64,000 nt of DNA from NCBI RefSeq assembly GCF_003334405.1, contig NZ_QOWM01000004.1, one strand, 5' to 3'. The translations under genes were made by a program, and so were the position numbers. The notes beneath the pieces were generated by a model that worked only from the letters and a program-made list of their open reading frames with translations, was not told the origin of the DNA and did no database searches. The stretch comes from Escherichia coli (lineage in GTDB: Bacteria > Pseudomonadota > Gammaproteobacteria > Enterobacterales > Enterobacteriaceae). This document shows, piece after piece, positions 22,553-24,812 of the stretch (positions are counted from its first letter, which is position 1; the number at the start of each line of letters is the position of its first letter).

Positions 22553-24812
22553 ATGAAAATAACGACAGTCGGTGTATGCATAATTAGCGGAATTTTTCCG
22601 TTGCTGATTTTGCCCCAATTGCCTGGGACATTAACCCTTGCGTTTCTGACTCTCTTCGCCTGCGTACTGGCATTTATCCCTGTTAAAACCGTCCGTTATA
22701 TCGCGCTGACGTTGCTGTTTTTCGTTTGGGGCATATTATCAGCAAAGCAAATTTTGTGGGCAGGAGAAACCTTAACTGGCGCGACGCAGGATGCAATTGT
22801 TGAGATCACTGCAACTGACGGCATGACCACTCATTACGGTCAAATTACTCATCTACAAGGTCGACGTATATTCCCTGCGTCAGGTCTCGTGATGTATGGC
22901 GAATATCTTCCGCAAGCGGTTTGTGCTGGACAACAATGGTCAATGAAACTCAAAGTTCGTGCAGTTCATGGCCAACTTAATGATGGCGGCTTTGATAGCC
23001 AGCGTTATGCCATTGCCCAGCATCAGCCGCTCACCGGCCGTTTTCTGCAGGCAAGTGTCATTGAACCGAATTGTAGCCTGCGTGCACAGTATCTGGCGTC
23101 ACTACAAACAACGCTGCAACCCTATCCGTGGAATGCGGTTATTCTTGGTTTAGGTATGGGGGAACGGTTATCCGTCCCCAAAGAAATCAAAAATATCATG
23201 CGCGATACTGGAACGGCGCATTTAATGGCGATATCGGGATTGCACATCGCTTTTGCGGCGTTGCTGGCTGCCGGACTCATTCGCAGTGGACAAATTTTTC
23301 TGCCTGGGCGCTGGATCCACTGGCAAATACCATTAATTGGCGGAATCTGCTGTGCTGCTTTTTATGCCTGGTTGACGGGAATGCAACCTCCTGCATTGCG
23401 TACCATGGTGGCGCTTGCTACGTGGGGAATGCTTAAGTTAAGTGGGCGACAGTGGAGTGGCTGGGATGTATGGATATGTTGTCTGGCGGCAATTTTGCTG
23501 ATGGATCCTGTTGCCATTCTCTCGCAAAGTTTATGGCTCTCTGCCGCTGCGGTCGCGGCATTGATATTTTGGTATCAGTGGTTTCCCTGTCCTGAGTGGC
23601 AACTGCCGCCGGTATTGCGTGCAGTTGTTTCCCTCATCCATCTGCAACTGGGAATCACACTTCTGCTTATGCCCGTGCAAATCGTCATATTTCATGGCAT
23701 TAGTCTGACCTCGTTTATTGCAAATCTATTAGCAATTCCCTTGGTGACATTTATCACGGTTCCGTTGATCCTCGCCGCGATGGTTGTGCATTTAAGCGGG
23801 CCGTTAATCCTGGAGCAAGGGTTATGGTTTCTTGCCGACCGGTCTTTGGCTTTACTTTTCTGGGGGTTAAAGAGTTTGCCGGAAGGGTGGATCAACATTG
23901 CTGAATGTTGGCAATGGCTATCATTTTCCCCATGGTTCTTACTGGTGGTATGGCGATTAAACGCCTGGCGAACGTTGCCAGCAATGTGTGTGGCTGGAGG
24001 CTTGCTGATGTGCTGGCCGCTGTGGCAAAAACCTCGACCTGACGAGTGGCAGCTGTACATGCTTGATGTCGGGCAAGGGCTGGCAATGGTGATAGCCAGA
24101 AACGGCAAAGCGATTCTCTATGACACAGGACTGGCCTGAAGGGGATAGTGGGCAACAACTGATTATCCCCTGGCTCCACTGGCATAATCTTGAACCGGAA
24201 GGCGTTATTCTGAGCCATGAACATCTGGATCACCGGGGAGGGCTGGATTCAATATTGCATATATGGCCGATGTTATGGATCAGAAGTCCGTTAAACTGGG
24301 AACATCATCAGCCCTGTGTGCGTGGCGAAGCGTGGCAATGGCAAGGATTGCGTTTCAGCGCGCACTGGCCTTTACAAGGTAGCAACGATAAAGGAAATAA
24401 CCATTCCTGTGTGGTTAAGGTTGATGACGGGACGAATAGCATTCTTCTAACCGGTGATATTGAAGCCCCAGCTGAACAAAAGATGCTAAGCCGTTACTGG
24501 CAGCAAGTGCAGGCAACATTGCTTCAGGTACCTCACCATGGCAGTAATACCTCATCATCGTTGCCATTAATTCAGCGAGTGAATGGAAAAGTGGCACTCG
24601 CATCGGCATCGCGCTATAACGCATGGCGACTGCCCTCTAACAAAGTTAAGCATCGCTATCAACTGCAAGGATATCAATGGATTGATACTCCACATCAAGG
24701 TCAAACAACGGTCAATTTTTCAGCGCAAGGCTGGCGGATTAGCAGCCTCAGGGAGCAAATTTTACCTCGTTGGTATCATCAGTGGTTTGGCGTGCCAGTG
24801 GATAACGGGTAG
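22553..24812 (+). pseudogene. ycaI: ComEC/Rec2-family inner-membrane protein YcaI, disrupted by a frameshift (5-bp deletion at 24131..24138)
   Basis: Frame from ATG 22553 (MKITTVGVCIISGIFPLL...) stops at TGA 24137..24139 after 528 codons; the metallo-beta-lactamase C-terminal domain (SHEHLDHRGG...) continues in another frame to 24812; 528 + 226 = 754 aa, the length I recall for intact YcaI. Confidence 0.8.

What the first reader, a model, noticed from the sequence alone, without database searches (positions are those of the whole stretch)
24131..24139. ycaI (ComEC-like) is split by a 5-bp deletion at a tandem CTGGC repeat
The ComEC/Rec2-family ORF starting at 22553 ends at TGA 24137..24139 after 528 codons, right at the junction between the polytopic membrane domain and the C-terminal metallo-beta-lactamase domain. 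That domain (WPEGDSGQQLIIPWLHWHNLEPEGVILSHEHLDHRGG...) continues uninterrupted in another frame to 24812. The junction reads ggaCTGGCCTGaagg; adding back one CTGGC unit (CTGGC-CTGGC-CTG) gives ...YDTGLAWPEGDSG... and a single 754-codon ORF, the length I recall for intact E. coli YcaI. A 5-bp loss at a two-unit direct repeat is typical of slipped-strand deletion and is not a classic homopolymer sequencing error. ComEC homologues form the inner-membrane DNA-uptake channel, so this strain would be predicted to lack that function.
Basis: partly seen in the sequence, partly recalled or inferred. Interest (0 to 1): 0.5.

Follow-up and report, generated by a model that had tools for sequence, protein, structure and literature searches.

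The report
Frameshifted ycaI (ComEC) pseudogene in E. coli
An E. coli gene related to the DNA-uptake channel ComEC has lost one copy of a 5-base repeat and is broken in two; this is a real but ordinary pseudogene that public annotation already flags, and the same small repeat has slipped independently in several other E. coli lineages.

Summary
ycaI (window 22553-24812) reads GGA-CTGGC-CTG-AAG where about 99.5% of 5,426 complete E. coli genomes read GGA-CTGGC-CTGGC-CTG-AAG. The missing unit puts a TGA at 24137-24139, and the rest of the gene continues in the +1 frame. Apart from the 5 bases, the allele is identical to the intact K-12-type allele.

RefSeq already marks this allele as "ycaI, frameshifted" in E. 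coli HS and in every other carrier whose record I opened. Twenty verified complete genomes carry it, including four separate HS assemblies, so it is not an assembly artefact.

Two details need correcting:
- The break lies about 24 residues inside the metallo-beta-lactamase domain (Pfam 505-686), not at its boundary.
- The intact tract has 2.6 units, not 2.

What I add: the same deletion sits on at least four different ycaI haplotypes, each next to a closest relative that keeps the full repeat. Two further genomes carry the reciprocal +5 expansion. The tract is the longest short tandem repeat in the gene. This is therefore a small slipped-strand hotspot, like the classical lacI (CTGG)3 site.

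The functional consequence (loss of ComEC-type DNA import) is inferred. It is probably of low impact, because natural competence is barely detectable in E. coli. Low interest.

The parts
22553..24812 (+). ycaI (ComEC/Rec2-family) pseudogene, whole extent
   Evidence: Identical (0 differences) to the HS locus that RefSeq annotates as 'ycaI, ComEC family protein, frameshifted'. The intact allele is 2265 bp and 754 aa.
22542..22555 (+). Shine-Dalgarno-like GGGAGGGG (22542-22549) and ATG start (22553-22555)
   Evidence: Read from the sequence. The start agrees with RefSeq annotation in all records opened. The longer ORF from ATG 22475 listed is not the annotated start.
22553..24139 (+). 5' fragment: 528 codons plus TGA. 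It encodes DUF4131/OB (27-157), the Competence membrane domain (201-467) and the first ~24 residues of the MBL domain.
24131..24138 (+). Contracted repeat tract CTGGCCTG (1.6 units). Intact alleles have CTGGCCTGGCCTG (2.6 units).
   Evidence: It is the longest short tandem repeat in the intact gene.
24137..24139 (+). Premature TGA stop created by the frameshift
24132..24812 (+). 3' coding remnant in the +1 frame (W529 onward of intact YcaI). It holds most of the MBL domain, including HEHLDH. The mechanical ORF starts at ATG 24120.
   Evidence: No Shine-Dalgarno-like sequence precedes ATG 24120.
24849..26597 (+). msbA (essential lipid A flippase), 36 bp downstream. Context only. It is intact, with a promoter-like hexamer pair at 24787-24815.
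   Evidence: The promoter match is a consensus hit only, and such hits were no more frequent than in shuffles.
22369..22397 (+). Terminator-like hairpin after ihfB, upstream of ycaI. Context only.

Best explanation
ycaI in this E. coli strain is a recently formed pseudogene. During replication, one CTGGC unit of a 13-nt tandem tract (CTGGC-CTGGC-CTG) was lost by slipped-strand mispairing. This shifts the reading frame after codon 528 and creates an immediate TGA.

The 5' product, if it is stable, would keep the OB-fold and the membrane channel domain. It would carry only the first strands of the periplasmic metallo-beta-lactamase (nuclease) domain and none of its metal-binding motif. The 3' remnant has no recognisable ribosome-binding site and no export signal, and it lacks the first strands of its fold, so it is very unlikely to complement. 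The strain is therefore predicted to lack ComEC-type single-strand DNA import.

Shown here: the deletion, its position in the domain, its presence in many independent assemblies, and its recurrence on different haplotypes together with the reciprocal expansion.

Inferred: the replication-slippage mechanism, loss of function, and the lack of an important phenotype.
For: - The gap is exactly one repeat unit with no other change.
- The allele has 0 SNPs against the intact K-12-type allele over 2265 bp and 0 SNPs over 5 kb, so the event is young.
- 17 complete genomes carry the identical junction and 3 more carry it with one SNP. Four of the records are separate HS assemblies.
- All carriers I opened are annotated as frameshifted.
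- Independent origins:
  - EC19 differs from intact ST648 by 1 SNP plus the gap.
  - GF131 differs from intact IAI39 by 8 SNPs plus the gap.
  - JNEC-KY208 differs from S19-651, which keeps the full 13-nt tract, by 0 SNPs plus the gap.
  - These backgrounds differ from the HS type by 42-82 SNPs within the gene.
  - They carry private SNPs 4 bp from the tract (24127) or inside it (24137).
- The reciprocal +5 allele (3.6 units) occurs in 2 genomes, both annotated as frameshifted.
- The tract is the longest short tandem repeat in ycaI.
- The break lies inside Pfam Lactamase_B 505-686 and upstream of HEHLDH.
- The ComEC C-terminal MBL domain is a Mn-dependent nuclease needed for efficient transformation in B. 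subtilis (PMC8579336).
- Loss or gain of one unit at a short tandem tract is the classical lacI (CTGG)3 behaviour, attributed to slippage (PMC12606429, PMC8233506).
Against: - No reads are available for the window's own genome, so an error in this particular assembly cannot be formally excluded.
- No complete genome in the collection is identical to the window.
- No expression or phenotype data exist for the truncated protein.
- A channel-only ComEC might keep partial activity.
- Whether the 17 HS-type carriers stem from one event or several could not be resolved. Many intact genomes are identical to the window over 25 kb apart from the 5-bp gap.
Confidence: 0.9

Rival explanations
1. The 5-bp gap is a sequencing or assembly artefact in the source genome, and the strain really has an intact ycaI.
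For: No reads are available for this window. The window's exact genome is not among the complete assemblies.
Against: - The same junction is present in 20 complete genomes from different laboratories, hosts and years, including four separate assemblies of strain HS.
- A clean loss of a 5-nt unit outside any homopolymer is not a typical error of any platform. The gene has no homopolymer of 6 or more bases.
Confidence: 0.03
2. The deletion arose only once and was spread to other lineages by homologous recombination, so the site is not a recurrent slippage hotspot.
For: E. coli core genes recombine. The window-versus-HS differences are clustered as expected for a mosaic. Within the HS-type group, one event versus several cannot be resolved.
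Against: - GF131 and EC19 carry a non-HS base at 24127, 4 bp upstream of the tract. JNEC-KY208 carries one inside the tract at 24137. All three carry a non-HS base at 24215, 77 bp downstream. An imported HS-type patch would therefore have to be shorter than about 90 bp (GF131, EC19) or 85 bp (JNEC-KY208).
- Each carrier's gene is otherwise nearly identical to its own lineage's allele that keeps the full repeat: 0, 1 and 8 SNPs.
- The reciprocal +5 allele exists, which recombination of a deletion cannot explain.
Confidence: 0.03
3. The split is functional. Either the ribosome shifts +1 at GCC-UGA to make a near-full-length protein lacking W529-P530, or the two ORFs are made separately and work together.
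For: The 3' ORF is in the +1 frame, and a stop codon sits at the shift site, as in prfB. The downstream frame is still entirely open, which is expected anyway for a young lesion.
Against: - The site (CUG GCC UGA A) lacks the prfB-type slippery CUU U and the upstream Shine-Dalgarno-like stimulator.
- The break is inside the MBL fold.
- The 3' ORF has no ribosome-binding site. From the known ComEC topology, it would also lack a route to the periplasm, where this domain acts (PMC8579336).
- About 99.5% of genomes keep the single ORF.
Confidence: 0.02
4. The tract is a selected on/off switch (a contingency-like locus), or loss of ComEC is adaptive in some niches, rather than neutral decay.
For: There are at least 4 independent contractions plus an expansion at one site. 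Carriers come from humans, poultry, pigeons, pig, water and vegetables. Other independent ycaI lesions exist, including 1-bp deletions and an IS1 insertion.
Against: - The tract has only 2.6 units, whereas phase-variable loci normally carry many more (established knowledge).
- Only about 0.4% of genomes carry the contraction and 0.04% the expansion, as expected for rare mutation under weak purifying selection.
- A tract of this size arises by chance in about 3% of shuffled genes.
- In JNEC-KY208 the deletion hit a gene already broken at nt 120. This shows the slip occurs without any selection on function.
Confidence: 0.04

Closest known systems
E. coli HS ycaI (ECHS_RS04990), RefSeq pseudogene 'ComEC family protein, frameshifted'
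   Same: Sequence is identical over the whole gene, including the 8-nt tract and the premature TGA.
   Different: The window comes from a different strain. Compared with HS it has about 190 mismatches over 62.7 kb, no IS621 insertion, and intact ycaK and elfA.
Intact E. coli K-12 YcaI (b0913; WP_000705764.1), a ComEC/Rec2 homologue
   Same: 0 SNPs over 2265 bp apart from the 5-bp unit. Same DUF4131-Competence-Lactamase_B architecture once the unit is restored. Same ihfB-ycaI-msbA-lpxK neighbourhood.
   Different: K-12 encodes one 754-aa protein. Here the frame breaks after residue 528, inside the MBL domain.
lacI (CTGG)3 spontaneous frameshift hotspot (Farabaugh et al. 1978, as described in PMC12606429 and PMC8233506)
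   Same: A short G+C-rich tandem tract with a very similar unit (CTGG versus CTGGC). Loss or gain of exactly one unit, both directions observed, attributed to replication slippage.
   Different: The lacI hotspot rate was measured experimentally and dominates the spontaneous spectrum. Here recurrence is inferred only from natural genomes (at least 4 losses and at least 1 gain in 5,426), and the tract is shorter in unit number (2.6 versus 3).
ComEC of naturally competent bacteria (B. subtilis ComEC, H. influenzae Rec2)
   Same: Same three-domain family (PMC6299819). The C-terminal MBL domain is the nuclease that degrades the non-transported strand (PMC8579336).
   Different: A role for E. coli YcaI in DNA import has not been shown directly. 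ycaI knock-outs do not affect natural plasmid transformation (PMC6135910, PMC3306417).

Membership tests
ComEC/Rec2 family (Pfam DUF4131 + Competence + Lactamase_B) | Three-domain architecture in the encoded sequence | tested here: met
   The intact allele, identical to the window except for the 5 bases, gives DUF4131 27-157 (5.6e-05), Competence 201-467 (4.1e-53) and Lactamase_B 505-686 (3.5e-23).
ComEC/Rec2 family (Pfam DUF4131 + Competence + Lactamase_B) | A single uninterrupted ORF joining the channel to the MBL domain with its HxHxDH motif | tested here: not met
   The frame breaks after codon 528 with TGA at 24137-24139. HEHLDH (residues 557-562 of the intact protein) lies in the +1 frame. 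The locus is therefore a pseudogene of this family, not a functional member.
ComEC/Rec2 family (Pfam DUF4131 + Competence + Lactamase_B) | Mediates ssDNA import across the inner membrane | not testable with these tools
   Literature only. This has not been shown directly for E. coli YcaI (PMC6135910, PMC3306417, PMC3330819).
Slipped-strand indel hotspot at a short tandem repeat (lacI (CTGG)3 type) | The indel equals exactly one repeat unit within a perfect tandem tract | tested here: met
   CTGGCCTGGCCTG becomes CTGGCCTG with the flanks unchanged.
Slipped-strand indel hotspot at a short tandem repeat (lacI (CTGG)3 type) | Both loss and gain of a unit occur at the site | tested here: met
   The -5 allele is verified in 20 genomes, and 21 fall in the matching identity band. 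The +5 allele is in 2 genomes.
Slipped-strand indel hotspot at a short tandem repeat (lacI (CTGG)3 type) | Independent recurrence on unrelated backgrounds | tested here: met
   Four haplotype backgrounds, each with a closest relative (0-8 SNPs) that keeps the full repeat, and private SNPs 4 bp from the tract or inside it.
Slipped-strand indel hotspot at a short tandem repeat (lacI (CTGG)3 type) | Mutation rate at the site measurably above the rest of the gene | not testable with these tools
   This needs a fluctuation assay. The only indirect support is that the tract is the longest short tandem repeat in the gene.
Phase-variable contingency locus | A long repeat tract giving frequent reversible switching, with both states common in populations | tested here: not met
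   The tract has 2.6 units. The off-states total about 0.4% of 5,426 genomes.
Programmed +1 ribosomal frameshift (prfB type) | A slippery codon before the stop (CUU U) plus an upstream Shine-Dalgarno-like stimulator, conserved across relatives | tested here: not met
   The site reads GGA CUG GCC UGA AGG with no such elements. Relatives have a plain continuous ORF.

The most novel reading that the evidence does not exclude
The CTGGC tract in ycaI acts as a low-frequency, reversible mutational switch. E. coli lineages would use it to repeatedly shut off, and occasionally restore, ComEC-dependent DNA import. Loss would be favoured in some host-associated niches rather than being neutral decay.
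Probability: 0.04. Interest if true: 0.4.

Novelty: already known. Interest (0 to 1): 0.13.

Why it matters
It matters very little for biology at large. The lesion is already annotated, the mechanism is textbook, and E. coli shows almost no natural competence, so losing the ComEC homologue has no known phenotype.

Minor practical value:
1. The delta-5 allele is a convenient marker of the HS-type lineage. E. coli HS is widely used as a commensal reference strain in colonisation studies, so anyone testing DNA uptake or the use of DNA as a nutrient in HS should know that ycaI is broken.
2. The tract is a natural example of a recurrent homoplasic indel. It can mislead indel-based phylogenies or variant filters.
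3. It adds a natural-population counterpart to the classical lacI (CTGG)3 hotspot.

Tried and rejected
- I first assumed the window was E. coli HS itself, because the first 600-base query matched at 100%. This was rejected after an elfA query landed on elfD/elfC. Direct comparison then showed about 190 mismatches, 7 single-base indels and a missing IS621. HS coordinates are valid only around ycaI.
- I tried to identify the source genome with two 25-kb queries. No complete genome is identical. The best hits for the left part are the carriers MS 124-1 and a7, and the best hits for the right part are non-carriers.
- I tried to decide whether the 17 HS-type carriers are one clade by using 25 kb of flank. 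This was uninformative, because many intact genomes are identical apart from the gap.
- Tandem Repeats Finder does not report the tract even at its lowest score threshold, because the tract is too short. A custom scan was needed.
- I considered a domain-boundary split giving two functional proteins. This was rejected because the break is inside the Pfam MBL domain.
- I considered prfB-like +1 frameshifting. This was rejected on sequence grounds.
- The promoter and terminator scan around ycaI-msbA found no more promoter-like sites than in shuffles, so nothing can be concluded about polarity on msbA.
- One of the 21 genomes in the 'contraction' identity bands was never listed individually and remains unverified.
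- A literature search found no paper that discusses the HS ycaI frameshift specifically.

Full report
**Observation.** The window sequence at 24041-24220 reads ...tatgacacaggaCTGGCCTGaaggggatagtggg.... The six-frame ORF list shows a + strand ORF ending at 24139 whose last residues are ...GKAILYDTGLA. A second + strand ORF in another frame (24120-24812, 230 aa) contains WPEGDSGQQLIIPWLHWHNLEPEGVILSHEHLDHRGG. Counted from the annotated start at 22553, the first ORF has 528 codons before TGA 24137-24139. That start is preceded by GGGAGGGG at 22542-22549.

**Comparison with other E. coli.** A 600-base query around the site matched all 5,426 complete E. coli genomes. Strain HS matched over 600 bases at 100%, while almost every other genome spanned 605 bases. 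Alignment of the junction shows that intact alleles read GGA CTGGC CTGGC CTG AAG, and that the window and HS lack exactly one CTGGC with no other change. The intact allele of strain H2 translates into one 754-aa protein containing YDTGLAWPEGDSG. That allele is identical over 2265/2265 bases to K-12 derivatives J53 and JM109. Over the whole gene the window differs from it by 0 SNPs plus the 5-bp gap, and the same holds over 5 kb. The deletion is therefore derived and young.

**Already annotated.** RefSeq annotates the HS locus (ECHS_RS04990) as 'ycaI, ComEC family protein', pseudogene, 'frameshifted'. It does the same for every other carrier record I opened. The gene sits between ihfB and the essential msbA-lpxK genes in all records.

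**Not an artefact.** A 91-base junction query separates carriers (at least 95.6% identity) from intact alleles (94.8%). It found 17 genomes at 100% and 4 in the 95-99% band. A 45-base query was designed so that intact alleles share no 28-mer with it. It returned exactly 19 records. JNEC-KY208 was expected to be missed because a SNP breaks its seed, which brings the verified total to 20. These include four separate assemblies of strain HS (NC_009800.1, CP092639.1, CP185286.1, CM173443.1), plus isolates from humans, chicken, duck, pigeon, pig, river water and vegetables. I cannot check reads for the window's own genome. Even so, a clean 5-nt unit loss seen in many independent assemblies is not a plausible error.

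**Identity of the window.** The window is not HS itself.
- Against NC_009800.1 it shows 49 mismatches and one indel over 42.6 kb.
- It lacks a 1,278-bp IS621 insertion.
- It has 144 mismatches and six indels over the last 20 kb.
- ycaK (7901-8491) and elfA (56087-56635), both flagged as frameshifted in HS, are intact in the window.
- No complete genome is identical to the window.

The window therefore comes from another E. coli strain that carries the HS-type ycaI allele.

**Where the break falls.** Pfam on the intact protein gives DUF4131 at 27-157, Competence at 201-467 and Lactamase_B at 505-686. The frameshift after residue 528 is thus about 24 residues inside the MBL domain. It lies after the first strands ending in the DTG motif and before HEHLDH at 557-562. 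Neither fragment contains a complete MBL fold.

**Mechanism: a recurrent slippage site.** Three carriers (GF131, EC19, JNEC-KY208) differ from the HS type, and from one another, by 96-178 SNPs over 10 kb. Within ycaI the figures are 42-83 SNPs. Each has a closest relative that keeps the full 13-nt tract:
- EC19 versus ST648: 1 SNP plus the gap.
- GF131 versus IAI39: 8 SNPs plus the gap.
- JNEC-KY208 versus S19-651: 0 SNPs plus the gap.

GF131 and EC19 carry a non-HS base at 24127, 4 bp from the tract. JNEC-KY208 carries one inside the tract at 24137. All three carry a non-HS base at 24215. Import of an HS-type patch by recombination would therefore need a tract shorter than about 90 bp. The same deletion has arisen at least four times.

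In the JNEC-KY208 lineage the gene was already broken by a 1-bp deletion at nt 120. The slip there happened without any selection on function.

A synthetic query with three full units found two genomes (CUVET19-1426, W21) carrying the reciprocal +5 expansion, both annotated as frameshifted. The same search put 21 genomes in the identity band expected for the contraction.

A custom scan shows that the 13-nt CTGGC tract is the longest short tandem repeat in the gene, and that the gene has no homopolymer of 6 or more bases. A tract of this size appears in about 3% of shuffled sequences, so its presence needs no special explanation.

Loss or gain of one unit at a short tandem tract is exactly the behaviour of the classical lacI (CTGG)3 hotspot, which is attributed to replication slippage (PMC12606429, PMC8233506).

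**Consequence (inferred).** In ComEC proteins the C-terminal MBL domain is an extracytoplasmic Mn-dependent nuclease, and inactivating it severely reduces transformation in B. subtilis (PMC8579336). The truncated product here keeps the OB and channel domains but has no catalytic MBL domain. The 3' ORF has no Shine-Dalgarno-like sequence and would have no route to the periplasm. Loss of ComEC-type DNA import is the likely outcome.

Its biological weight in E. coli is doubtful:
- Uptake through the competence homologues is only detectable with plasmid-borne sxy plus lambda Red (PMC3330819).
- One recent study reports modestly reduced artificial transformation in a DH5alpha ycaI nonsense mutant (PMC12844161).

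ycaI is intact in the great majority of genomes. In an evenly spaced sample of 60 genomes, five had length-changing lesions: an IS1 insertion, two 1-bp losses, one +7 and one split. An earlier survey also noted three ComEC domain profiles among E. coli strains (PMC6299819). The gene is thus generally maintained but sporadically lost.

**Alternatives.**
- A programmed +1 frameshift is not supported. The site GGA CUG GCC UGA AGG has neither the slippery codon nor the stimulator of prfB.
- A contingency-locus reading is not supported. The tract has 2.6 units and the off-states are found in about 0.4% of genomes.
- Polarity on msbA cannot be judged. A promoter-like pair lies at 24787-24815, but such matches are no more frequent than in shuffles.

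**Verdict.** This is a correct and carefully reasoned first-stage observation of an ordinary, already annotated pseudogene. The only addition is that the lesion marks a small natural slippage hotspot with at least four independent losses and at least one gain. Interest is low.

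Noticed in passing
window ~42661 (between gloC and aspC); HS locus L019:10767-11747: E. coli HS carries a 1,278-bp IS621 (IS110-family) insertion here that the window lacks. This is one of several signs that the window comes from a different strain than HS.
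   Followed up: partly
window 7901-8491 (ycaK) and 56087-56635 (elfA): Both genes are flagged 'frameshifted' in the HS RefSeq record, but they are intact ORFs in the window. HS lacks one base at window 8325 and one at window 56587. Whether the HS lesions are real or errors from its 2007 sequencing was not examined.
   Followed up: partly
window 16000-20000, 34000-36000, 44000-48000, 54000-60000: Differences between the window and HS are strongly clustered: 18, 18, 61 and 67 mismatches in these blocks, and almost none elsewhere. This pattern suggests recombination mosaicism between close phylogroup-A-type genomes.
   Followed up: no
ycaI nt 120, 1079 and 1458 in loci L010-L012, L006 and L003: Other independent ycaI frameshifts exist. 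A 1-bp deletion at nt 120 is shared by S19-651, JNEC-KY179, STEC2018-607 and JNEC-KY208. A further 1-bp deletion at nt 1079 is in STEC2018-607, and one at nt 1458 is in O25:NM 2014EL-1343-2. Some could be long-read assembly errors.
   Followed up: partly
hits H196, H240, H247, H255 and H40: Further ycaI disruptions appeared in the sampled genomes: an IS1A insertion (HS30-1), a +7-bp allele (AST215), a 2264-bp allele (ExPEC XM) and genes split into two places (90-3040, L37). None was examined further.
   Followed up: no
window 24131-24138: The intact tract CTGGCCTGGCCTG contains one CCTGG (a Dcm methylation / very-short-patch repair site). The contracted tract CTGGCCTG has none, so the deletion removes that site. 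Any link between Dcm/Vsr processing and slippage here is pure speculation.
   Followed up: no
window 22475-22552: The mechanical ORF extends 26 codons upstream of the annotated ycaI start, to an ATG at 22475. The annotated ATG at 22553 has the Shine-Dalgarno-like GGGAGGGG and is used in all RefSeq records I opened.
   Followed up: yes
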